Below are positions 1 to 36,200 of a stretch of 41,251 nt of DNA, one piece after another (the first letter of the stretch is position 1; the number at the start of each line of letters is the position of its first letter). This DNA is from a virus. Taxonomy: Duplodnaviria; Heunggongvirae; Uroviricota; Caudoviricetes. The position numbers were made by a program, and so were the translations under genes. Below the pieces are notes generated by a model. That model saw only the letters and a list, made by a program, of their open reading frames with translations. It was not told where the DNA came from and ran no database searches. Location of the stretch: the IMG/VR virus record IMGVR_UViG_2869976549_000005; one strand, given 5' to 3'.

Positions 1-393
1 ATGGACGAACAGTGGGGCTATGTCGGGGCTAAATCGCGCCAGCGCTGGCTGTTTTACGCGTATGACAGTCTCCGGAAGACGGTTGTTGCGCACGTATTCG
101 GTGAACGCACTATGGCGACGCTGGGGCGTCTTATGAGCCTGCTGTCACCCTTTGACGTGGTGATATGGATGACGGATGGCTGGCCGCTGTATGAATCCCG
201 CCTGAAGGGAAAGCTGCACGTAATCAGCAAGCGATATACGCAGCGAATTGAGCGGCATAACCTGAATCTGAGGCAGCACCTGGCACGGCTGGGACGGAAG
301 TCGCTGTCGTTCTCAAAATCGGTGGAGCTGCATGACAAAGTCATCGGGCATTATCTGAACATAAAACACTATCAATAAGTTGGAGTCATTACC
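1..393 (+). mobile_element. insB: IS1, partial (3' 393 bp; window starts inside the element); contains InsB C-terminal coding part 1-378
   Basis: Positions 1-393 are identical to 40352-40744 of the complete IS1 copy; ends with the IS1 terminus ...GGAGTCATTACC; ORF 1-378 is the InsB C-terminal 125 aa. Confidence 0.9.
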
Positions 394-510
394 CGATATC
401 CTGCTGAGAACATAAACACCCACGGATCGAGGCGTACGCTATCATGTTGCTGTGCACCGCCCAGTTTATAATTGGCGATGGTATCGATATCCATGTACCA
501 CACTGACATG
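394..510 (-). pseudogene. 5' fragment of an unidentified gene whose reading frame runs into the IS1 end (truncated by IS1 insertion)
   Basis: ATG at 510 (minus) opens frame MSVWYMDIDTIANYKLGGAQQHDSVRLDPWVFMF... that continues uninterrupted into IS1 at 393. Confidence 0.3.
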
Positions 511-696
511 TTTTAAAAAATGCAATAAGACATTGTATCTGAAAGAAAAAACAGGATTTTAAGGCGCTTTTTTATACCGTTTTCCGTGTTTTTAACTGCC
601 TGATTTTATTGAAATCTTTTTTAGTTTTGCAGAAAGGATTTTTTGCTCGATCGCTTTAATTTTATACATTCCTGATAACGGAAATTTTTTTGCCCG

Positions 697-726
697 TTGA
701 CAGTTTTTGTTCTCCGGGGCTATATT
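697..726 (+). promoter_or_regulatory. sigma70-type promoter candidate (TTGACA - 18 bp - TATATT) driving the Rha-family gene leader
   Basis: Exact -35 TTGACA at 697-702 and -10 TATATT at 721-726, embedded in AT-rich intergenic DNA. Confidence 0.5.
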
Positions 727-786
727 CCTCACACAACCGCAAAATCGGTTGTCGGGATTGGCGTCTCGGATAACATCACAACGCAT

Positions 787-808
787 AGCCGCGTTTGCGG
801 TTTTTTTT
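787..808 (+). terminator. intrinsic terminator / attenuator in the leader (hairpin CCGCGTTTGCGG + T8)
   Basis: GC hairpin at 789-800 followed by TTTTTTTT at 801-808, ~70 nt downstream of the predicted start; preceded by a second hairpin CAACCGcaaaatCGGTTG at 734-751. Confidence 0.45.
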
Positions 809-968
809 GCGTTAAGCATTGCCACATTCGCATTATGGTGGGGCGTGCAGGGGCGGAGAAATCCGCGCCGGGTTTTGTGATGACCGGTTACGCCAACCCT
901 GTACGTCTCACCACCTCCCTGATTGGCGTCAGAGGTGGTGATCATCCAATTAATTGGAGTCATCACAT

Positions 969-1526
969 ATGAATACAGCTATAACTTTTTCTAACGAGTC
1001 ACCAAAAGTCTTTTTCAAAGATGGTCGCCTGGTTACCACCTCTCAAGCTGTTGCCGACTACTTCGATAAACAACATAAACACGTTTTAGCTAAGATTGAC
1101 ACACTCGACTGCTCTCCCGAATTTACATCAGCCAACTTTTCGGCCGATGTTCAGACTGTCGAAATTGGCAACGGCGCAGAACGTGAATCACGATGCTACC
1201 TGATCACAAAAGACGGCTTCATGTTCCTCGTAATGGGATTTACTGGCAAAAAAGCAGCCAGACTAAAAGAAGCTTACATTGAAAAATTTAACGCAATGGA
1301 AGAAGAACTCCACAAACGTCCTCCTGCAGCACAAAACTCCCCCGCCCCAAATAATGGATGCGCATTACTGATCCACTTCGATAAACACGGTCAGGTCGAG
1401 TTCACAGAAAAAGTCCCCGCCGATGCGATGGTATGCACTCTGGAACGGTTTAAATTTTATCTGGAGCAACATGGGTGGATCGTTGCCCGTAAAGAACAAT
1501 TGGTGGAAAGGTTGATGCGGTTTTAA
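969..1526 (+). CDS. Rha-family phage regulatory protein (antirepressor-like), 185 aa
   Basis: N-terminus TSQAVADYFDKQHKHVLAKI matches the Rha-domain signature; GGAG RBS 9 nt upstream of ATG 969; 12-bp palindrome CCAATTAATTGG (947-958) overlaps the RBS region. Confidence 0.7.
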   Translation: MNTAITFSNESPKVFFKDGRLVTTSQAVADYFDKQHKHVLAKIDTLDCSPEFTSANFSADVQTVEIGNGAERESRCYLITKDGFMFLVMGFTGKKAARLKEAYIEKFNAMEEELHKRPPAAQNSPAPNNGCALLIHFDKHGQVEFTEKVPADAMVCTLERFKFYLEQHGWIVARKEQLVERLMRF

Positions 1527-1887: not shown

Positions 1888-2020
1888 AACCGCAGCACGT
1901 TCCTGCATACGACGTGTCTGCGGCATAATCCCAATGATTACTCCCTGACAGGATTTGCAGGCCACTCAATATCAGGTGCAGTTGATGTATCAACACGATT
2001 CAACAATACCCGATATTTAT
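1888..2020. repeat. direct repeat copy 1 (~130 bp; tfa 3' end plus hairpin), flanks the methyltransferase gene
   Basis: Near-identical to 2948-3078; begins with inverted repeat CCGCAGCACGT...ACGTG(T)CTGCGG. Confidence 0.8.
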
Positions 2021-2157
2021 TCCATGCCTCCAGCAACGATCTTTCTTCCTCCGTTGCGATTTCCAGATCTACAGCATCCTGCAGTGGCGCAATATACTCA
2101 CTAAATTCCTGGATGTAGAACTGTGTGGTGACGGTCTTCCAGCCATTCGGCTCCTGC
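1930..2157 (-). pseudogene. tfa: tail fibre assembly protein (Tfa) C-terminal remnant
   Basis: Minus-strand frame encodes ...[50 protein letters not shown], the conserved Tfa C-terminus; no N-terminal part upstream. Confidence 0.6.
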
Positions 2158-2275
2158 TGTATCGAAGCATACTAGGCTATTTCAATATCGCTATGCTGCG
2201 GCAGCATTTAACCCCTTGTAATTCATCGCCATAATTGATTTAATTCACAAATAAAACTATAACATGGTGAAATCA

Positions 2276-2932
2276 ATGAAAACAAACACAGATGATGGGG
2301 CTAAAATTTACACACCACTTACCCTAAAGCTTTATGACTGGTGGGTTTTGGGAGTATCAAATCGGCTTGCATGGGGATGTCCTACAAAGGAACACCTTCT
2401 TCCACACTTTCTGGAACATTTAGGTAACAACCATCTGGATATTGGTGTTGGAACTGGGTTTTACCTTACTCACGTACCTGAGAGTAGTCTGATATCTTTA
2501 ATGGATTTGAACGAAGCTAGCCTGAACGCGGCATCTACAAGGGCTGGGGAATCAAAAATTAAACATAAAATTAGCCATGATGTTTTTGAACCTTATCCCG
2601 CGGCGTTACATGGTCAATTTGATTCCATTTCCATGTTTTACCTTCTTCACTGCCTGCCTGGAAATATATCTACAAAAAGCTGTGTAATACGCAATGCGGC
2701 GCAGGCCTTAACTGACGATGGAACTCTATACGGAGCCACAATTCTTGGCGATGGAGTTGTGCACAATAGCTTCGGTCAAAAACTGATGCGCATTTACAAT
2801 CAGAAAGGCATCTTTTCAAACACAAAAGATTCCGAAGAAGGCTTAACACATATACTCTCAGAGCATTTCGAGAATGTTAAAACCAGGGTTCAAGGTACTG
2901 TAGTAATGTTTTCCGCTTCAGGGAAAAAATAG
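2276..2932 (+). CDS. class I SAM-dependent methyltransferase, small (218 aa), AT-rich cargo gene
   Basis: Motif I DIGVGTG, acidic post-I LMDLNEA, motif II FDSISMFYLLHCLP; no DPPY/NPPY motif (so probably not a DNA amino-methyltransferase); GGTGA RBS before ATG 2276 (alternative ATG at 2264); hairpin terminator just after the stop. Confidence 0.75.
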   Translation: MKTNTDDGAKIYTPLTLKLYDWWVLGVSNRLAWGCPTKEHLLPHFLEHLGNNHLDIGVGTGFYLTHVPESSLISLMDLNEASLNAASTRAGESKIKHKISHDVFEPYPAALHGQFDSISMFYLLHCLPGNISTKSCVIRNAAQALTDDGTLYGATILGDGVVHNSFGQKLMRIYNQKGIFSNTKDSEEGLTHILSEHFENVKTRVQGTVVMFSASGKK

Positions 2933-2947
2933 CATCCAACCGCAGCA

Positions 2948-3078
2948 CGTTCTTGCTTAAGACGTGCTGCGGCATAATCCCAATGATTACTCCCTGACAG
3001 GGTTCGTAGGCCACTCAATATCAGGTGCAGTTGATGTATCAACACGGTTCAGCAACACCCGATACTTTTTCTAGGCTT
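2948..3078. repeat. direct repeat copy 2 (~130 bp; tfa 3' end plus perfect 11-bp-stem hairpin)
   Basis: CCGCAGCACGT-tcttgcttaag-ACGTGCTGCGG then sequence near-identical to 1888-2020; encodes ...[26 protein letters not shown] on the minus strand. Confidence 0.8.
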
Positions 3079-3079
3079 C

Positions 3080-3337
3080 CACCACCAGCACGACAAGATG
3101 CCGCATACAGTGACCCAGTCAGTCCAGTTTTCAGACAACCAGTGCGTCACCTTTTTGAAGGCGCTTTAAAGCACGTTTTAATCCAGGTCGGCCTGTCCTT
3201 GTTCCGCTTAATTTATCTTCAAATATTTGTTCATATCCTGCACAAACAAGAGCGTTTCGTTGCAGGTCTGTATTCTGGTCATTTGTTGATACCCTTACAT
3301 AGCCAATCAGCACGCTGAATCTCCCGTCCAAAAGCAC
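3080..3337 (-). pseudogene. pin: Pin/Gin/Hin-family DNA invertase (serine recombinase), N-terminal remnant with in-frame stops and 3' truncation
   Basis: MLIGYVRVSTNDQNTDLQRNALVCAGYEQIFEDKLSGTRTGRPGLKRALKRLQKGDALVV, then TGA where the conserved W and R codons should be, then fusion to the Tfa-derived repeat. Confidence 0.8.
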
Positions 3338-6948: not shown

Positions 6949-9419
6949 AATCCCCCATCTGTTTTAAAAATGAAATCACCACCACCATCTGAACCGTTAT
7001 TAATATGAACACCATCACCACCGTTATCTTTCCACAAAAACATACGAATTCTTCCGTCTTCGTTGGCGAATGTAATGTGGTGGCGGTAATTACTTTTTAA
7101 TCTAAAATTGCTGCCATTAGATTCAATATCTTTATAAAGATGTAATCCTAACTCATCAATATGTCCGATGCGCGAACCATTTGAATAGAAGCTAATAATA
7201 CCATCTCCATCTTGCCTAAATCCGGTGTCGTTATCTCCCAGAACAATGGAGTTTTCACCCAGTGCGTTATCAGTAGCTCCAATAGCTAGACCTCCTTTAA
7301 TTTTGGCCCCGTGGCTGACAGATATAGCACCTGTTCTCAGATTTATAGCGAATGGCCTTAATGGGCCGATATTACCGTTTTCGCCTTGTCCTTCAGCCGT
7401 CGGAATGAAATGAAGAAAATCTTCTGAACGACGGAAAATTAGACCGAAGGTATCATTGAAAATTCGCAGCGCATTCACCGTGCCAATTTTCAGTTCTCCG
7501 GTCATTTTATCGCCGGAACGCTGAACGGCGTTACCAGCCTTGTTTACCGTTTCCTGTAAACCGAGGTATTCGATAACGGCAGCAACGGTCGATTTCGCAA
7601 GAATATCCCGCCCGACTTTTGTCAGGGTTGCCAGGCTGGCGACATCATTCCCCGTAAAATACGGAAACTTGCCTGCCGCAGTAGTAAGTCCGGCCAGCGC
7701 CGTCAGGGTGGCATCTTTCGGTTGCTTACCCGCAAGCGCGTTAGTCATGGAGGTCGCAAAATTCGGGTCGTTGCCCAGCGCCGCAGCCAGCTCGTTCAGC
7801 GTGTTCAGTGCATCAGGTGACGAATCTACAAGGGCGGCAATCGCAGCCATAACGAAAGCCGTGCTTGCGATTTGGGTATTATTCGTTCCCTGTCGCGCAG
7901 TTGGTGTTGTTGGCGTTCCGGTCAGTGCAGGACTATTTAAGGGCGCTTTCTTGTTCGTTTCACCCATTACCGCCTTAACCGCTTTTGGCGTTGCCGCCAG
8001 TGACTCGGAAGTGCTGTTGGTCGCACTGCTGAGCTGTACTATCCCCTTTTTCGTCGTGCTCGCATCCTCCAGCGCCACGGCGGATGCAATATCCTCTGCC
8101 CGTTTTGCTGCTGTCTCGGCGCGCGTTGCCGCGGATTCAGCAGCAACTTTGCTCTGAGATGCAGCCGTCGCACTGCCTGCCGCCTCTGATGCTTTCGTTG
8201 TTGCTGTCGTGGCACTACCTTTCGCTGCTGACGCTTGTCTGGTCGCCTCATCTTTTGAAGCAGACGCAGATGATGCCGATGACGCCGCTGAACTGGCTGA
8301 CGATGCGGCTGCTGCCTTAGAGGAAGCAGCATTGTCTGCTGAAGTCTTTGCATTTGTTTCAGAGGTTTTTGCTGCAGAAGCAGACCTCGCTGCTGCAGTG
8401 GCTTGCTCAGTGGCTTTGCCAGCCTTCGTTGTGGCTGTTGAAGCGGATGATGCGGCGCTTTCTGCCGATTTTCCGGCGGCGGTGGCACTGGCTGAGGCCT
8501 GCCCGGCTCTTGTTGACGCGGCACTGGCAGATAATGCAGCCGCTGTTTTTGAACCTGCCGCAGCTGAGGCGCTCTGTCCCGCTGCTGTTTCAGAAGACTT
8601 AGCGTTCGTCTCGGACGTTTTTGCCGCCTTCGCGGAATTTCCTGCCGCCGTTGCCGAGGAAGCTGCACTACTGGCACTTGATGATGCATTCGTTTCTGAA
8701 GATTTCGCTGCCTCTTTTGAGGCCGCCGCACCCCGTGCCGAGGTGGCAGCTTCTGACGCCTTCGTGGTCGCTGTGGATGCAGAAGTGGCTGCCGATTTTT
8801 GTGATGCTGCGGCATTCGTTTCTGACGTTTTCGCGGCACTGGCGCTGGTAGCTGCCGCGCTTTTTGATGACTCTGCAGCAGCACTTTTTGCTGCTTCACG
8901 GGCCTTTGTCGATGCCGTTCCTGCGCTGGAAGACGCTGACTGAGCCGACGACGCGGCCTGTCCGGCTGACGTGCTGGCGGCACGTGCTGAGGCTGCAGCA
9001 TCGGTTGCATGAGTTGCCGCCTCGCTGGCTGATTTTTTCGCGGCTGCCGTATTCTGTGCAACCGCGGAGGCGTTACGTGACACCTCTTCCACCATCTGCT
9101 CAAAGCGGCGCAGTGCCTCCGGTCGGACATCATCCTCCGTCATGGCACCGAGAAAATCATTCAGCGTACCTGGTCTGGAACCTTCATAGACGGTAATGGT
9201 CCCGGCATGTGAAGGCGGAAAACCTTCAACCAGCAGGGTGACGCTGTACTGACCATGCTCAACATCCATGCTGTAACGTCCGGCTTCATCCGGATTTTCA
9301 GAGGCCACCGTGTTCACCACCATCGTGCTGCTGGTTCGTCTGGCCTTCAGCACAATGGTGCAGTTCTGTACTGGTTTTCCTGTGCCATCTTTAAGCACGC
9401 CAGAAATTTTTACTGTCAT
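6949..9419 (-). pseudogene. stf: lambdoid side tail fibre protein Stf, 5' portion (823 codons), interrupted by IS600
   Basis: N-terminus MTVKISGVLKDGTGKPVQNCTIVLKA... typical of Stf; long Ala/Ser/Thr-rich repeat region; ORF stop at 6930 lies inside IS600. Confidence 0.85.
7551..7576. other. gix/hix-type inversion crossover site (right), inside stf at the constant/variable junction
   Basis: TTCCTGTAAACCGAGGTATTCGATAA, inverted relative to 3369-3394 and close to the Mu gix sequence. Confidence 0.7.
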
Positions 9420-27486: not shown

Positions 27487-27721
27487 GAATCCTCCCGGCC
27501 GGGATAATATTGTGAGTAAAATAAGGAGCGGGCTGAAGTCCGGAAGTTACAGGACAATGGCAGAAGAGAGACGACAGCCCGCAATTCGAAAAAGACCGCG
27601 CAGTTGCGCAGAGTGATTACTATGGGGTATTATTCGCCAGCTGAAATATTACTTCACGTTTTATTGTTTATTCCTTGCCGCCCGCGTCTCCCAGCGCGGG
27701 CTTTTTTTGCCCACAAGAAAA

Positions 27722-27950
27722 CCCCTCCGGAGAGGGGCTAAAGCCGCGTATCTGTATCATCATGCACATGGTGCCGGGTGCCTCCCGGTGAGTTCAGCCC
27801 GGTGCCACTAAACCCGCGTCATTCTCGTTTTGATAATCAGAGATTATACCGTCACCAGTCGCCCCTCCGCTCAGGGGGATTCACCATGCGAAATTTTTTT
27901 AACAAATGCCCAGTCTGACAGGCAACTGTCAACTTACTGAATTGTGAGCA
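27722..27950 (-). repeat. structured non-coding element, paralogue A
   Basis: Shares hairpin blocks with 29475-29685: CCCCTCCGGAGAGGGG, TGCCGGGTGCCTCCCGGTGA, CGCCCCTCCGC-CAGGGGGATTCACCATGC, AACTGTCAAC, CTGAATTGTGAG. Confidence 0.6.
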
Positions 27951-29241: not shown

Positions 29242-29474
29242 AAAAAGAACAAATGGTAGTGTCCGCTATTGCCAGTACACCTCAGGATAGCGGTCATGTG
29301 ATGCCGGTTTCCCGGTAACTCAGCACCGGTATCTGAGTCAACGTTTTCTCTACTGGGTCATTTCCGATACGCCCTGCCTGCTGACAGGCTTTCATCACAT
29401 CTGAAAATATAGCACCCTGACTGATACTGTAGTACCTAAGGTTCCAGAAACTGTGATGTATCCGGCACAGAAAA

Positions 29475-29685
29475 GCCCCTCCGGAGAGGGCTGGAGAGTG
29501 GCGCTATGTGCCATTGCATGATGCCGGGTGCCTCCCGGTGAATTCAGTACCAGCACCTGAATCCGCGATTATCCCATATACCTACTCGCTGATTGCCCCT
29601 CCGCACAGGGGGATTCACCATGCCAGTTTCTTTTAACAAACTCCCCGCAAAACAGACAACTGTCAACCGTCTGAATTGTGAGACA
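29475..29685 (-). repeat. structured non-coding element, paralogue B
   Basis: See 27722-27950; conserved hairpins with compensatory loop differences. Confidence 0.6.
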
Positions 29686-29728: not shown

Positions 29729-29805
29729 TGGCGCGTTGTACTGGATTCGAACCAGTGACCGATTGCTTAGAAGGCAATTGCTCTGTCCGGCTGAGCTAAC
29801 AACGC
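29729..29805 (-). tRNA. argO: tRNA-Arg (anticodon UCU), 77 nt, CCA encoded
   Basis: Cloverleaf deduced by hand: acceptor GCGUUGU/ACAACGC, anticodon loop CUUCUAA, T-loop GGTTCGAATCC. Confidence 0.8.
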
Positions 29806-29843: not shown

Positions 29844-31181
29844 CATAAGCGCTAACTTAAGGGTTGTGGTATTACGCCTGATATGATTTAACGTGCCGAT
29901 GAATTACTCTCACGATAACTGGTCAGCAATTCTGGCCCATATTGGTAAGCCCGAAGAACTGGATACTTCGGCACGTAATGCCGGGGCTCTAACCCGCCGC
30001 CGCGAAATTCGTGATGCTGCAACTCTGCTACGTCTGGGGCTGGCTTACGGCCCCGGGGGGATGTCATTACGTGAAGTCACTGCATGGGCTCAGCTCCATG
30101 ACGTTGCAACATTATCTGACGTGGCTCTCCTGAAGCGGCTGCGGAATGCCGCCGACTGGTTTGGCATACTTGCCGCACAAACACTTGCTGTACGCGCCGC
30201 AGTTACGGGTTGTACAAGCGGAAAGAGATTGCGTCTTGTCGATGGAACAGCAATCAGTGCGCCCGGGGGCGGCAGCGCTGAATGGCGACTACATATGGGA
30301 TATGATCCTCATACCTGTCAGTTCACTGATTTTGAGCTAACCGACAGCAGAGACGCTGAACGGCTGGACCGATTTGCGCAAACGGCAGACGAGATACGCA
30401 TTGCTGACCGGGGATTCGGTTCGCGTCCCGAATGTATCCGCTCACTTGCTTTTGGAGAAGCTGATTATATCGTCCGGGTTCACTGGCGAGGATTGCGCTG
30501 GTTAACTGCAGAAGGAATGCGCTTTGACATGATGGGTTTTCTGCGCGGGCTGGATTGCGGTAAGAACGGTGAAACCACTGTAATGATAGGCAATTCAGGT
30601 AATAAAAAAGCCGGAGCTCCCTTTCCGGCACGTCTCATTGCCGTATCACTTCCTCCCGAAAAAGCATTAATCAGTAAAACCCGACTGCTCAGCGAGAATC
30701 GTCGAAAAGGACGAGTAGTTCAGGCGGAAACGCTGGAAGCAGCGGGCCATGTGCTATTGCTAACATCATTACCGGAAGATGAATATTCAGCAGAGCAAGT
30801 GGCTGACTGTTACCGTCTGCGATGGCAAATTGAACTGGCTTTTAAGCGGCTCAAAAGTTTGCTGCACCTGGATGCTTTGCGTGCAAAGGAACCTGAACTC
30901 GCGAAAGCGTGGATATTTGCTAATCTACTCGCCGCATTTTTAATTGACGACATAATCCAGCCATCGCTGGATTTCCCCCCAGAAGTGCCGGATCCGAAAA
31001 GAAGAACTAACTCGTTGTGGAGAATAACAAAAATGGTCATCTGGAGCTTACAGGTGGCCATTCGTGGGACAGTATCCCTGACAGCCTACAAAACGCAATT
31101 GAAGAACGCGAGGCATCGTCTTAACGAGGCACCGAGGCGTCGCATTCTTCAGATGGTTCAACCCTTAAGTTAGCGCTTATG
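29844..31181 (+). mobile_element. IS186 (IS4 family), 1338 bp, inserted at a GGGG-N7-CCCC site with ~12-bp target duplication
   Basis: Termini CATAAGCGCTAACTTAAGGGTTG...CAACCCTTAAGTTAGCGCTTATG; GGGACTTGAACCC duplicated on both sides. Confidence 0.9.
29893..31173 (+). CDS. IS186 transposase
   Basis: MNYSHDNWSAILAHIGKPEELDTSARNAG... 426-aa ORF. Confidence 0.9.
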   Translation: MPMNYSHDNWSAILAHIGKPEELDTSARNAGALTRRREIRDAATLLRLGLAYGPGGMSLREVTAWAQLHDVATLSDVALLKRLRNAADWFGILAAQTLAVRAAVTGCTSGKRLRLVDGTAISAPGGGSAEWRLHMGYDPHTCQFTDFELTDSRDAERLDRFAQTADEIRIADRGFGSRPECIRSLAFGEADYIVRVHWRGLRWLTAEGMRFDMMGFLRGLDCGKNGETTVMIGNSGNKKAGAPFPARLIAVSLPPEKALISKTRLLSENRRKGRVVQAETLEAAGHVLLLTSLPEDEYSAEQVADCYRLRWQIELAFKRLKSLLHLDALRAKEPELAKAWIFANLLAAFLIDDIIQPSLDFPPEVPDPKRRTNSLWRITKMVIWSLQVAIRGTVSLTAYKTQLKNARHRLNEAPRRRILQMVQPLS

Positions 31182-31251
31182 GGACTTGAACCCCGCGCAG
31201 CCAGCTTCGAAGGCTGGCGCTCTTTCCTGATGAGCTAATGGCGGTATGTGA

Positions 31252-31327
31252 TGGTGGCCCTTGCTGGATTTGAACCAGCGACCTGGCGATTATGAGTCGC
31301 TCGCTCTCACCACTGAGCTAAAGGGCC
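31252..31327 (-). tRNA. ileZ: tRNA with anticodon CAU, ileX/ileZ-like (tRNA-Ile2 type), 76 nt
   Basis: GGCCCUUUAGCUCAGUGG...anticodon loop CUCAUAA...GGUUCAAAUCC...CCA; resembles E. coli ileX rather than initiator or elongator Met. Confidence 0.7.
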
Positions 31328-35833: not shown

Positions 35834-35989
35834 TTACTCCTCAGGTTCGTAAGCTGTGAAGACAGCGACCTCCGTCTGGCCGGTTCGAATTCGTACCTCG
35901 CAGAGGTCTTTCCTCGTTACCAGTGCCGTCACTATGACGGTTAAACAGATGACGATCAGGGCGATTAACATCGCCTTTTGCTGCTTCAT
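35834..35989 (-). CDS. hok: Hok/Gef-family type I toxin (51 aa; RelF/HokD-like)
   Basis: MKQQKAMLIALIVICLTVIVTALVTRKDLCEVRIRTGQTEVAVFTAYEPEE; AAGGAG RBS; in-frame upstream extension to 36046. Confidence 0.85.
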   Translation of the reverse strand: MKQQKAMLIALIVICLTVIVTALVTRKDLCEVRIRTGQTEVAVFTAYEPEE

Positions 35990-36200
35990 AGCCTGCTTCT
36001 CCTTGCCTTTCGGCACGTAAGAGGCTAACCTAGATTTGCCGTTCATAGATTGAGCCTCAGATTAATGTTAAGCGTCTTGCCGGACGCGTAATGTTAACTG
36101 GGGCTTTTCTCTATCTGCCTTTTGGTGTTCATGCCTGAGACAGATAGCCTCAAGCACCCGCTGCAATTCTACTTAACTCTCCTTTTCCCGCAAACCGTTT

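What the first reader, a model, noticed from the sequence alone, without database searches (positions are those of the whole stretch)
697..1526. Rha-family regulator behind a 240-nt structured leader: consensus promoter, two terminator-like hairpins, RBS-overlapping palindrome
Seen: near-consensus promoter TTGACA-18-TATATT (697-726); hairpin CAACCGcaaaatCGGTTG (734-751); hairpin CCGCGTTTGCGG + T8 (789-808) that would end a ~75-nt transcript; second hairpin GCGGAgaaaTCCGC + GGGTTTT (854-877); 9-bp inverted repeat CACCACCTC/GAGGTGGTG (909-940) containing an anti-SD-like CCTCC; perfect palindrome CCAATTAATTGG (947-958) overlapping the GGAG RBS of the Rha-type ORF (start 969). Inference: either a small RNA released from the leader (as in P1 c4 or P4 CI RNA control of antirepressor-type genes) or a terminator/antiterminator switch controlling the Rha-like gene. 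I found no obvious sRNA-target complementarity by eye.
Basis: partly seen in the sequence, partly recalled or inferred. Interest (0 to 1): 0.5.

Follow-up and report, generated by a model that had tools for sequence, protein, structure and literature searches.

The report
P1 c4-type antisense RNA lock
The "structured leader" is two already catalogued phage RNA genes in tandem, IsrK and the C4 antisense RNA known from phages P1, P4 and Gifsy-1, which control an antirepressor-like Rha gene, so it is a clear but ordinary member of a known system.

Summary
Window 697-968 is not an anonymous leader. Rfam places two families there at full length and above their curated cut-offs: isrK (733-807, 72 bits) and C4 antisense RNA (831-918, 76 bits). 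The promoter, both RNAs and the downstream layout align with P1 immI (c4-icd-ant), P4 immunity (seqA-CI) and Gifsy-1 isrK-orf45-anrP.

C4 carries two boxes: b' (UGUGAUGAC, 876-884) and a' (ACGCCAA, 890-896). Each box pairs with one site in IsrK (b1 at 774-781, a1 at 758-764). Each also pairs with one site downstream: a2 at 923-929, and b2 at 959-967, between the Rha Shine-Dalgarno sequence and its AUG. About 100 related modules carry dozens of different box sequences, and the three copies of each box change together.

The most likely mechanism is that C4 blocks the Rha ribosome site. IsrK, which ends at its own terminator, mimics the target and relieves the block. A 45-codon upstream ORF (835-972, AUGA overlap) couples translation into Rha.

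The second "terminator" is an internal C4 hairpin. The CCUCC motif and the palindrome are not conserved. RefSeq's "ash family protein" here is a translation of the RNA genes. This is a known kind of system, of low interest.

The parts
697..726 (+). Sigma-70 promoter: TTGACA (697-702), 18-nt spacer, TATATT (721-726). The expected start site is about 733.
   Evidence: The scan gives 11/12 matches. The promoter aligns with the experimentally used isrK promoter region of Gifsy-1, and CCGGGGCTATATTCC is identical. It also aligns with P1 promoter P1c4.
733..808 (+). IsrK small RNA (the P1 'a1 b1' element, P4 seqA). It comprises hairpin 1 (734-751), hairpin 2 (753-768) showing box a1 UUGGCGU (758-764) in its loop, box b1 CAUCACAA (774-781), and an intrinsic terminator (789-800 plus U8 at 801-808).
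   Evidence: Rfam RF01394 scores 72.2 bits (cut-off 50) over model positions 1-77. RF03163 c4-a1b1 scores 43.8 bits at 720-772. RNAalifold shows compensatory changes in hairpin 1. The terminator is found by the scan.
831..918 (+). C4 antisense RNA; the mature form is predicted at 837-915 by alignment with the annotated 77-nt P1 C4. It comprises a closing stem (836-852 with 898-914), hairpin I (853-866), hairpin II (867-888) with box b' UGUGAUGAC (876-884) in its loop, and the single-stranded box a' ACGCCAA (890-896).
   Evidence: Rfam RF01695 scores 75.9 bits (cut-off 45) over model positions 1-87. The stem and hairpin I covary.
921..930 (+). Downstream target box a2: GAUUGGCGUC, with core UUGGCGU at 923-929. 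It is identical to a1 and complementary to a'.
   Evidence: In the a'-a2 test 85.7% of cells pair, 5 of 7 pairs show changes on both sides, and 0 of 500 shuffles reach the score. Duplex energy is -10.3 kcal/mol.
932..940 (+). GAGGUGGUG element. It can pair either with the 3' strand of the C4 stem (909-917, 'helix X', with a2 in the loop) or with box b2 (933-940 with 959-966), which hides the Rha ribosome site.
   Evidence: Helix X is 93.9% paired across 57 sequences, with 2 compensatory pairs. The minimum-energy folds show the hairpin that sequesters the ribosome site.
956..967 (+). Rha ribosome binding region: Shine-Dalgarno GGAG (956-959) and target box b2 GUCAUCACA (959-967), which ends 1 nt before the AUG.
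   Evidence: A 9-bp Watson-Crick match joins b2 to C4 876-884, at -13.8 kcal/mol. Across 47 distinct loops the cognate loop-target runs average 10.64 nt, against 6.95 +/- 0.20 when partners are permuted.
835..972 (+). 45-codon upstream ORF, the equivalent of Gifsy-1 orf45. Its AUG lies in the C4 5' stem at the predicted processing site, and its stop overlaps the Rha start (AUGA).
   Evidence: ORF list and sequence. Same length and AUGA overlap as in Gifsy-1, where translation and coupling were shown experimentally (PMC4825925). Its length and end point are not conserved across modules.
969..1526 (+). Regulated gene: a 185-aa Rha-family protein with a C-terminal domain shared with phage antirepressors.
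   Evidence: Pfam PF09669 scores 95.3 bits over residues 23-112. The C-terminal 68 aa hit phrog_2379 'anti-repressor', the family of Gifsy-1 AnrP. BLASTP against AnrP gives 32% identity over 65 aa, E = 3e-6.

Best explanation
Window 697-1526 is an immI-type immunity module, homologous to P1 c4-icd-ant, P4 seqA-CI-seqC and Gifsy-1 isrK-orf45-anrP.

One constitutive promoter (697-726) starts transcription at about 733. Most transcripts stop at the IsrK terminator and give a 75-nt IsrK RNA. Read-through transcripts contain C4, which by analogy with P1 and P4 is cut out as a roughly 79-nt RNA (837-915).

C4 presents two short boxes: b' in the loop of its second hairpin and a' in a single-stranded stretch. 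These pair with a2 (923-929) and b2 (959-967) on the mRNA. Box b2 fills the gap between the Rha Shine-Dalgarno sequence and the AUG, so ribosomes cannot start and the antirepressor-like Rha protein is kept off in the lysogen.

IsrK carries copies of the same two boxes (a1, b1). It therefore competes for C4, or for the C4 segment of the read-through RNA. A rise in IsrK opens the structure and frees the AUG at 835. The 45-codon upstream ORF can then be translated, and its ribosomes unwind the ribosome-site hairpin and restart at the overlapping AUGA to make Rha.

Shown here: family membership, the architecture, the box complementarity and its covariation. Inferred from homologues: C4 processing, translational repression, activation by IsrK, translational coupling, and antirepressor activity of Rha.
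For: - Rfam: isrK and C4 match at full length above their curated cut-offs, in tandem. The same tandem is found in 8 of 8 phage loci fetched, in P4 and in Gifsy-1 and P1.
- P1 annotation: the GenBank record marks a1, b1, c4, a2 and b2 in the same order and spacing, with b2 next to the icd ribosome site.
- Covariation across 57 diverse modules: a1-a' is 89.8% paired, all 7 pairs show changes on both sides, 0 of 500 shuffles reach the score, and slid controls are 25-51% paired. a'-a2 is 85.7% paired, 5 of 7 pairs change on both sides, 0 of 500 shuffles.
- Alignment-free permutation over 47 distinct loops: b'-b1 runs average 8.32 nt against 5.59 +/- 0.15, and b'-b2 10.64 against 6.95 +/- 0.20.
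- Diversity: 39 loop-box types and 14 single-stranded-box types occur in 98 modules.
- In the window: b'-b2 is 9 bp (-13.8 kcal/mol), b'-b1 8 bp, and a'-a1 and a'-a2 7 bp each.
- Position of b2: it covers the Shine-Dalgarno sequence or the start codon in nearly all modules.
- Gifsy-1 experiments (PMC4825925): the isrK promoter drives anrP. The read-through mRNA is translationally silent. IsrK supplied in trans activates translation about 100-fold. Compensatory mutations G28A/C162U and G31A/C159U fall on the positions that align with the a1-a' pairs here. orf45 translation is coupled to anrP through AUGA. An ~80-nt processed species, STnc1160, lies downstream of IsrK. That it corresponds to the C4 segment is my inference from the alignment.
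- Expression: IsrK and STnc1160 are highly expressed in lysogens under all conditions tested (PMC7067206).
- Downstream genes of related modules are of antirepressor type: Rha, ORF6N, Bro-N and Icd.
Against: - There are no expression data for this locus.
- C4 processing, Hfq dependence and repression were not tested here.
- Unlike most modules, b2 lies after the Shine-Dalgarno sequence rather than on it. It shares this with only a few relatives, such as Yersinia phage YpM44 and Izhakiella.
- The ribosome site is already hidden by a local hairpin without C4, so the contribution of C4 in trans is uncertain.
- The Gifsy-1 authors explain activation by IsrK binding to the read-through mRNA rather than by titration of free C4. 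[quoted passage not shown]
- The upstream ORF is not conserved in length or end point across modules.
- The module sits at the far end of a prophage next to pseudogenes and an IS1 element, and no target repressor for Rha was identified.
Confidence: 0.8

Rival explanations
1. C4 acts mainly at the level of transcription, as P4 CI RNA does. Pairing with the upstream and downstream boxes causes premature termination, either at the IsrK terminator or by Rho after translation is blocked. The block of Rha initiation would then be secondary.
For: - P4 has the same isrK-like plus C4-family tandem.
- CI RNA is described as a termination factor acting through seqA and seqC (PMC4825925 discussion).
- In Gifsy-1, IsrK in trans raised the transcriptional fusion 8-fold.
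- From my own knowledge, P1 C4 repression of icd translation causes Rho-dependent polarity on ant.
Against: - In Gifsy-1 the translational effect (139-fold) far exceeds the transcriptional one (8-fold).
- No terminator lies between C4 and the Rha start in the window.
- Box b2 sits directly on the ribosome binding region.
Confidence: 0.15
2. The leader is a purely cis-acting attenuator, a terminator/antiterminator switch that releases no functional small RNA.
For: There is an intrinsic terminator at 789-808. Alternative pairings exist for the C4 3' strand, which can pair with 836-852 or with 934-940.
Against: - The supposed second terminator is an internal C4 hairpin followed by a hypervariable loop.
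- Three-way covariation of boxes that lie up to 190 nt apart fits antisense recognition, not an attenuator.
- Homologous RNAs accumulate as discrete species and act in trans.
Confidence: 0.05
3. Region 697-972 encodes a real 'Ash family' protein, as RefSeq annotates it, and the RNA matches are incidental.
For: - Pfam PF10554 scores 53.8 bits on the translation, and PGAP annotates WP_001296031.1 there.
- This reading frame is open across IsrK in 69 of 100 modules, against 31-34 in the other two frames. In the SfV, ST64B and mEp460 group it is fused to the flanking coding sequence.
Against: - The annotated TTG start is the -35 hexamer of the promoter.
- In P4 the Pfam Ash match falls on the obsolete 'cI protein' CDS, which overlaps the C4-family RNA hit, while the true antirepressor epsilon belongs to a different family.
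- The variable boxes change so as to keep RNA complementarity.
- The Gifsy-1 authors found the nucleotide sequence conserved but the amino-acid sequence variable.
- ORF extent differs widely between modules.
Confidence: 0.04
4. The module is an inactive relic at the decayed end of a defective prophage.
For: It is flanked by IS1, an ompW remnant and tail-fibre-assembly pseudogenes.
Against: - The promoter, both RNAs, all four box pairings and the Rha ORF are intact.
- The leader is at least 95% identical in about 447 E. coli records.
- The 1.3-kb locus is covered at 80% or more in 446 records.
Confidence: 0.08

Closest known systems
Phage P1/P7 immI operon (c4 antisense RNA - icd - ant1/ant2)
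   Same: The order of parts is the same: promoter, a1-b1 hairpin element with a terminator-like hairpin, C4, a2, b2 at a ribosome site, and an antirepressor. The C4 fold is the same (Rfam RF01695). The first ORF's stop overlaps the antirepressor start. P1-type modules align in the same alignment as the window.
   Different: The window has no icd gene. The regulated ORF is a Rha-family protein directly. Box b2 lies between the Shine-Dalgarno sequence and the AUG rather than on the Shine-Dalgarno sequence. The box sequences differ, which implies a different immunity specificity. No repressor operator was recognised at the promoter, whereas P1 has the C1 operator Oc4.
Salmonella Gifsy-1 isrK - orf45 - anrP locus (Hershko-Shalev et al. 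2016, PMC4825925)
   Same: This is the closest relative in sequence. The promoter -10 region is identical. The locus has IsrK, a C4-like segment (STnc1160), a 45-codon ORF with an AUGA overlap, and an a-box of the same sequence. The C-terminal domain of the regulated protein is homologous.
   Different: AnrP has an ORF6N N-terminal domain where the window protein has Rha. Gifsy-1 b2 lies on the Shine-Dalgarno sequence. The Gifsy-1 locus lies just downstream of the Q-like antiterminator gene antQ, whereas the window module sits at the prophage end beside the tail-fibre genes and the ompW attachment site.
Satellite phage P4 immunity (seqA - CI RNA - seqC)
   Same: P4 has the same isrK-like plus C4-family tandem. 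The RNA is a processed antisense RNA that recognises one upstream and one downstream copy of its target.
   Different: P4 CI is described as acting by premature transcription termination. It controls the replication operon rather than a Rha gene.
Phage P22 immI (sar antisense RNA - ant)
   Same: A small RNA blocks translation of an antirepressor. The module lies in the late region next to the tail gene (and my own knowledge of the P22 map).
   Different: sar is a true cis-antisense transcript from the opposite strand. It is unrelated in sequence and fold, and no match to it was found here.

Membership tests
C4 antisense RNA (Rfam RF01695; P1 c4 / P4 CI) | Covariance-model match above the curated cut-off over the whole model | tested here: met
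   75.9 bits against 45, model positions 1-87, at window 831-918.
C4 antisense RNA (Rfam RF01695; P1 c4 / P4 CI) | Long closing stem plus two internal hairpins, supported by compensatory changes | tested here: met
   RNAalifold on 57 sequences shows changes on both sides in the stem pairs and in 5 of 5 hairpin I pairs.
C4 antisense RNA (Rfam RF01695; P1 c4 / P4 CI) | Two boxes (a', b'), each complementary to an upstream (a1, b1) and a downstream (a2, b2) site | tested here: met
   Window pairings are 7-9 bp each. Covariation and permutation tests support them.
C4 antisense RNA (Rfam RF01695; P1 c4 / P4 CI) | The downstream target overlaps the ribosome binding site of the first gene of an antirepressor operon | tested here: met
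   b2 at 959-967 lies between GGAG (956-959) and the ATG at 969 of the Rha gene.
C4 antisense RNA (Rfam RF01695; P1 c4 / P4 CI) | Cut out of a longer transcript (RNase P at the 5' end) and acts in trans as a repressor | not testable with these tools
   Only the sequence context is conserved: the invariant UUAUGGUGGG and CACCACC. Processing is known for P1 and P4 from my own knowledge and.
isrK (Rfam RF01394) / c4-a1b1 (RF03163) | Covariance-model match above the cut-off, starting at a promoter and ending at an intrinsic terminator | tested here: met
   isrK scores 72.2 bits against 50 at 733-807. The promoter is at 697-726 and the terminator at 789-808. c4-a1b1 scores 43.8 bits, just under its cut-off of 46.7.
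isrK (Rfam RF01394) / c4-a1b1 (RF03163) | Followed by a short ORF whose stop overlaps the antirepressor start (translational coupling) | tested here: met
   ORF 835-972 (45 aa) has an AUGA overlap at 969-972. The coupling itself was not tested.
isrK (Rfam RF01394) / c4-a1b1 (RF03163) | Hfq-bound small RNA that activates translation in trans | not testable with these tools
   Shown only for Gifsy-1.
Rha family / phage antirepressor | Phage_pRha domain | tested here: met
   PF09669 scores 95.3 bits against 29.9 over residues 23-112.
Rha family / phage antirepressor | Inactivates a phage repressor | not testable with these tools
   Only homology of the C-terminal 68 aa to AnrP-type antirepressors is available.
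P1 immI operon in the strict sense | An icd gene between c4 and ant | tested here: not met
   Only 50 nt separate C4 from the Rha ATG. Icd-like ORFs occur only in the P1-type modules.
Terminator/antiterminator attenuator | A second intrinsic terminator upstream of the gene, with a mutually exclusive antiterminator | tested here: not met
   No terminator-like site lies between 808 and 969. The 853-866 hairpin is C4 hairpin I.
Ash protein family (Pfam PF10554) | A translated protein product | tested here: inconclusive
   The profile matches. However, the annotated start is the -35 hexamer, and the P4 founder sequence is the obsolete cI 'protein' that overlaps CI RNA. The reading frame is nevertheless kept open unusually often.

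The most novel reading that the evidence does not exclude
The isrK-C4 segment may be a three-state device. The invariant AUG that opens the 'Ash'/orf45 reading frame sits exactly at the predicted RNase P cleavage site of C4. Cutting out the repressor RNA and translating through the region would then be mutually exclusive. IsrK would act as a target mimic that tips the balance between the two.

In many relatives the same frame is kept open through both RNA genes and is fused to the flanking coding sequence. Translation from an upstream operon could therefore override the RNA lock. The two-box code (at least 39 x 14 types) would keep the antirepressors of co-resident prophages insulated from one another.
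Probability: 0.3. Interest if true: 0.5.

Novelty: new member of a known kind. Interest (0 to 1): 0.2.

Why it matters
Modules of this type decide whether an antirepressor is made, and so whether a prophage, or a neighbouring one, is induced. Leader-like sequences occur in 2416 of 5426 complete E. coli genomes, with up to 8 copies per genome, including Shiga-toxin phages. In RefSeq, however, they are labelled 'ash family protein', folded into 'Rha' genes, or left unannotated.

Recognising them as RNA locks with readable specificity boxes would help predict which prophages share immunity or cross-talk. For this particular locus nothing departs from the known scheme, except the position of one box and the Rha partner.

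Tried and rejected
- **Whole-molecule duplex prediction.** Predicting duplexes between IsrK, C4 and the downstream RNA unrolled all internal structure and barely beat shuffles. I replaced it with box-level tests.
- **First box assignment.** I initially took the loop of IsrK hairpin 1 (GCAAAAUC) as a C4 target. That loop is conserved and does not covary with the C4 loop. The real second box lies in the linker at 774-781.
- **Box names.** I re-mapped my first a/b naming to the P1 GenBank nomenclature.
- **Genome-collection scan.** A scan with a pattern of 15 specified bases returned mostly chance hits, including tRNA genes. Only about 11 hits were real modules.
- **Anti-SD CCUCC (914-918) and palindrome (946-957).** Neither is conserved in homologues. 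In the window the palindrome only contributes the inner stem of the hairpin that hides the ribosome site.
- **Minus-strand ORF 592-966.** It has no family match.
- **Second copy or other targets.** The window holds no second isrK/C4 copy. No other site combines both boxes.
- **LexA-type operator at the promoter.** None was seen by eye. This was not tested formally.
Full report
**What is in the sequence**

- The promoter TTGACA-18-TATATT lies at 697-726 and matches 11 of 12 consensus positions.
- The hairpin CAACCG/CGGTTG lies at 734-751.
- A hairpin plus U8 at 789-808 is picked up by the terminator scan.
- The hairpin GCGGA/TCCGC lies at 853-866.
- The 9-bp inverted repeat lies at 909-917 and 932-940.
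- The palindrome CCAATTAATTGG lies at 946-957.
- The ribosome site GGAG lies at 956-959 and the ATG at 969.

The leader 733-990 folds far better than shuffled versions: -97.6 kcal/mol, z = -4.9, with 0 of 200 shuffles folding as well.

**What it is**

A scan of the whole window against Rfam at the curated cut-offs places two families in the leader, both at full model length.
- isrK (RF01394) lies at 733-807 and scores 72.2 bits against a cut-off of 50.
- C4 antisense RNA (RF01695) lies at 831-918 and scores 75.9 bits against a cut-off of 45.
- The isrK match also scores 43.8 bits against 'a1, b1 targets of C4 antisense RNA' (RF03163), just under that family's cut-off.

The 240-nt leader is therefore two known RNA genes in tandem. 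The 5' arm of the 9-bp inverted repeat is the 3' strand of the long C4 closing stem.

**Relatives**

The same isrK + C4 tandem passes the Rfam cut-offs in all eight phage loci I fetched: Stx2a_WGPS4, Yersinia YpM44, ZX5, an Stx2c phage, phiV10, mEp460, ST64B and SfV. It is also present in satellite phage P4.

The P1 GenBank record annotates the same series of parts: promoter P1c4, a1, b1, c4 (77 nt), a2, b2, icd, ant. The P1 sequence aligns with the window.

Gifsy-1 is the closest relative. The region around the -10 hexamer (CCGGGGCTATATTCC) is identical, and IsrK and the C4-like segment align throughout.

Aligning with P1 predicts the mature window C4 as 837-915. The 5' end is the G of the invariant AUG, and the 3' end is ...CACCACC.

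**The missing complementarity**

An IMG/VR scan with a pattern from the invariant C4 5' stem gave 98 non-redundant modules. In these, two short boxes are hypervariable, yet each changes in step at three places. I name them as in the P1 record.

| Box | Sequence | Window position | Location |
|---|---|---|---|
| a' | ACGCCAA | 890-896 | C4, single-stranded stretch |
| a1 | UUGGCGU | 758-764 | loop of IsrK hairpin 2 |
| a2 | UUGGCGU | 923-929 | downstream of C4 |
| b' | UGUGAUGAC | 876-884 | loop of C4 hairpin II |
| b1 | CAUCACAA | 774-781 | IsrK linker |
| b2 | GUCAUCACA | 959-967 | between the Rha Shine-Dalgarno sequence and the AUG |

Tests on a 57-sequence alignment support the a-box pairings:
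- a1-a' is 89.8% paired. All 7 pairs show changes on both sides, and 0 of 500 shuffles reach the covariation score. Slid controls are 25-51% paired.
- a'-a2 is 85.7% paired. Five of 7 pairs change on both sides, and 0 of 500 shuffles reach the score.

The b boxes vary in length, so I used an alignment-free test over 47 distinct loops. The mean longest complementary run between b' and b1 is 8.32 nt, against 5.59 +/- 0.15 when partners are permuted. For b' and the ribosome site it is 10.64 nt, against 6.95 +/- 0.20.

There are 39 loop-box types and 14 single-stranded-box types, in 53 combinations. In nearly all modules b2 covers the Shine-Dalgarno sequence. In the window, Yersinia YpM44 and an Izhakiella prophage, it instead covers the spacer or the start codon.

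Box-level duplex energies in the window are:
- b'-b2: -13.8 kcal/mol
- b'-b1: -12.2 kcal/mol
- a'-a2: -10.3 kcal/mol
- a'-a1: -17.4 kcal/mol

**Other structure**

RNAalifold supports IsrK hairpins 1 and 2, the C4 closing stem and hairpin I, all with compensatory changes.

The near-invariant GGUGGUG (934-940) can pair with the C4 3' strand. This helix is 93.9% paired across the alignment, and two of its pairs change compensatorily, whereas the C4 5' strand only tolerates wobble at those positions. Forming it puts a2 in a hairpin loop, but it competes with the C4 stem.

In the minimum-energy fold the same element instead pairs with b2 (933-940 with 959-966). Together with UCCAA/UUGGA, taken from the palindrome, this buries the Rha ribosome site.

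The CCUCC motif and the palindrome itself are not conserved.

**The coding question**

RefSeq annotates 697-972 as 'ash family protein', and the translation matches Pfam PF10554. Three points argue against a real protein:
- The annotated TTG start is the -35 hexamer.
- In P4 the Pfam match falls on the obsolete 'cI gene product' CDS (8168-8584), which overlaps the C4-family hit (8420-8507), that is, CI RNA. The real derepression protein epsilon belongs to a different Pfam family.
- The boxes vary so as to keep RNA pairing.

I conclude that the annotation is a translation of RNA genes.

A shorter ORF from the invariant AUG (835-972, 45 codons) ends in AUGA on the Rha start, exactly as orf45 does in Gifsy-1. 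There, tagging and mutagenesis showed that it is translated and coupled to anrP. Across modules this ORF is not conserved. It is fused in frame to the downstream gene in 54 of 96 modules and stops at assorted places in the rest.

One point is unexplained. This frame is open across IsrK in 69 of 100 modules, against 31-34 for the other two frames. In the SfV, ST64B and mEp460 group it is part of a long annotated CDS.

**The regulated gene**

ORF 969-1526 has a Phage_pRha domain at residues 23-112. Its C-terminal ~68 aa fall in the same PHROG (2379, 'anti-repressor') as Gifsy-1 AnrP. It aligns with AnrP at 32% identity over 65 aa, and by eye more closely with an ORF6N antirepressor from an uncultivated-virus contig of the kind carried by Stx phages.

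Related modules sit in front of Rha, ORF6N, Bro-N and Icd-type genes.

**Context**

The prophage is lambdoid and is inserted in ompW. The module is the last element at the tail-fibre end and points inward. In this window an IS1 element (1-393) has also landed in the ompW remnant.

**Mechanism**

Shown here:
- membership of the two RNA families;
- the order of parts;
- the complementarity of the boxes and its covariation;
- the placement of b2 on the Rha initiation region;
- the AUGA overlap.

Inferred from P1, P4 and Gifsy-1 (and my own knowledge of RNase P processing of C4):
- Transcription from 697-726 mostly ends at 808, giving IsrK.
- Read-through yields C4, which is cut out of the transcript.
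- C4 pairs with a2 and b2 and blocks Rha initiation, possibly with polarity on transcription.
- IsrK carries the same boxes as the target. It competes for C4, or for the C4 segment of the read-through RNA, exposes AUG 835 and allows upstream-ORF translation. Those ribosomes melt the ribosome-site hairpin and restart at AUGA.

The Gifsy-1 compensatory mutants G28A/C162U and G31A/C159U fall on the positions that align with a1-a' pairs G760-C894 and G763-C891 here.

**Rivals**
- A pure attenuator is not supported, because there is no second terminator.
- A protein-only reading is unlikely, for the reasons given above.
- A P4-style termination mode may contribute but is probably secondary. In Gifsy-1 the translational effect is 139-fold and the transcriptional effect 8-fold.
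- A dead relic is unlikely, because every part is intact. The leader is at least 95% identical in about 447 E. coli records, and 446 records cover at least 80% of the 1.3-kb locus.

**Novelty**

The kind is well known. C4 and c4-a1b1 were catalogued in 2010 (PMC2864571). IsrK was dissected in 2016. Co-occurrence of c4 and isrK next to a Bro gene has been noted in APSE phages.

Leader-like sequence is found in 2416 of 5426 complete E. coli genomes.

This locus is an unstudied but ordinary member. Its only distinguishing points are a Rha partner without icd, b2 in the spacer between the Shine-Dalgarno sequence and the AUG, and a rare b-box sequence that occurs once among the 98 modules.

Noticed in passing
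window 697-972; also P4 (L252) 8168-8584: RefSeq/PGAP label the isrK-C4 region 'ash family protein'. Pfam PF10554 matches its translation. In P4 the same profile matches the obsolete 'cI protein' CDS that overlaps CI RNA, not the epsilon antirepressor. The family therefore looks like a translation of conserved RNA genes.
   Followed up: yes
L007 (mEp460) 1132-2283, L009 (SfV) 1132-1968, L008 (ST64B) 1097-2254; 100 modules in all: The reading frame of the invariant C4 AUG is open across IsrK in 69 of 100 modules, against 31-34 in the other frames. In one phage group it is part of a long CDS running from upstream through both RNA genes into the Rha domain. Whether it is translated is unknown.
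   Followed up: partly
L043 9775-11106, L027 3665-4340, L078 7843-8515, L095 4804-5460: Some viral contigs carry two or three isrK-C4-rha cassettes in tandem, 653-656 nt apart. Each cassette has different a/b box sequences.
   Followed up: partly
window 720-807: Rfam isrK (RF01394) and c4-a1b1 (RF03163) describe the same element, but isrK is not listed in the C4 clan CL00128.
   Followed up: partly
window 1-512: The 3' part of IS1 (InsB ORF 1-378, inverted repeat ending at 393) is inserted in a 3' remnant of ompW (about 394-512, minus strand). The prophage occupies the ompW site.
   Followed up: partly
window 1918-3337: A 118-nt direct repeat (1918-2035 and 2967-3084, 90% identical) brackets a class I SAM-dependent methyltransferase ORF (2264-2932). 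It sits among tail-fibre-assembly pseudogenes, and a truncated invertase-like ORF follows at 3131-3337.
   Followed up: partly
window 27709-27918, 29463-29652, 29729-29805, 31178-31327, 35984-36159 (all minus strand): Other Rfam and ARAGORN hits in the prophage: two STnc100 copies, tRNA-Arg, tRNA-Met, a weak third tRNA match, and a sok antitoxin RNA next to a hok-type gene.
   Followed up: no
L144, L192, L209, L240: The invariant C4 5' stem motif (TTATGGTGGG..G.G..GGG) also matches the acceptor-stem end of some tRNA genes read on the reverse strand. This fits C4 being an RNase P substrate with a tRNA-like stem.
   Followed up: no
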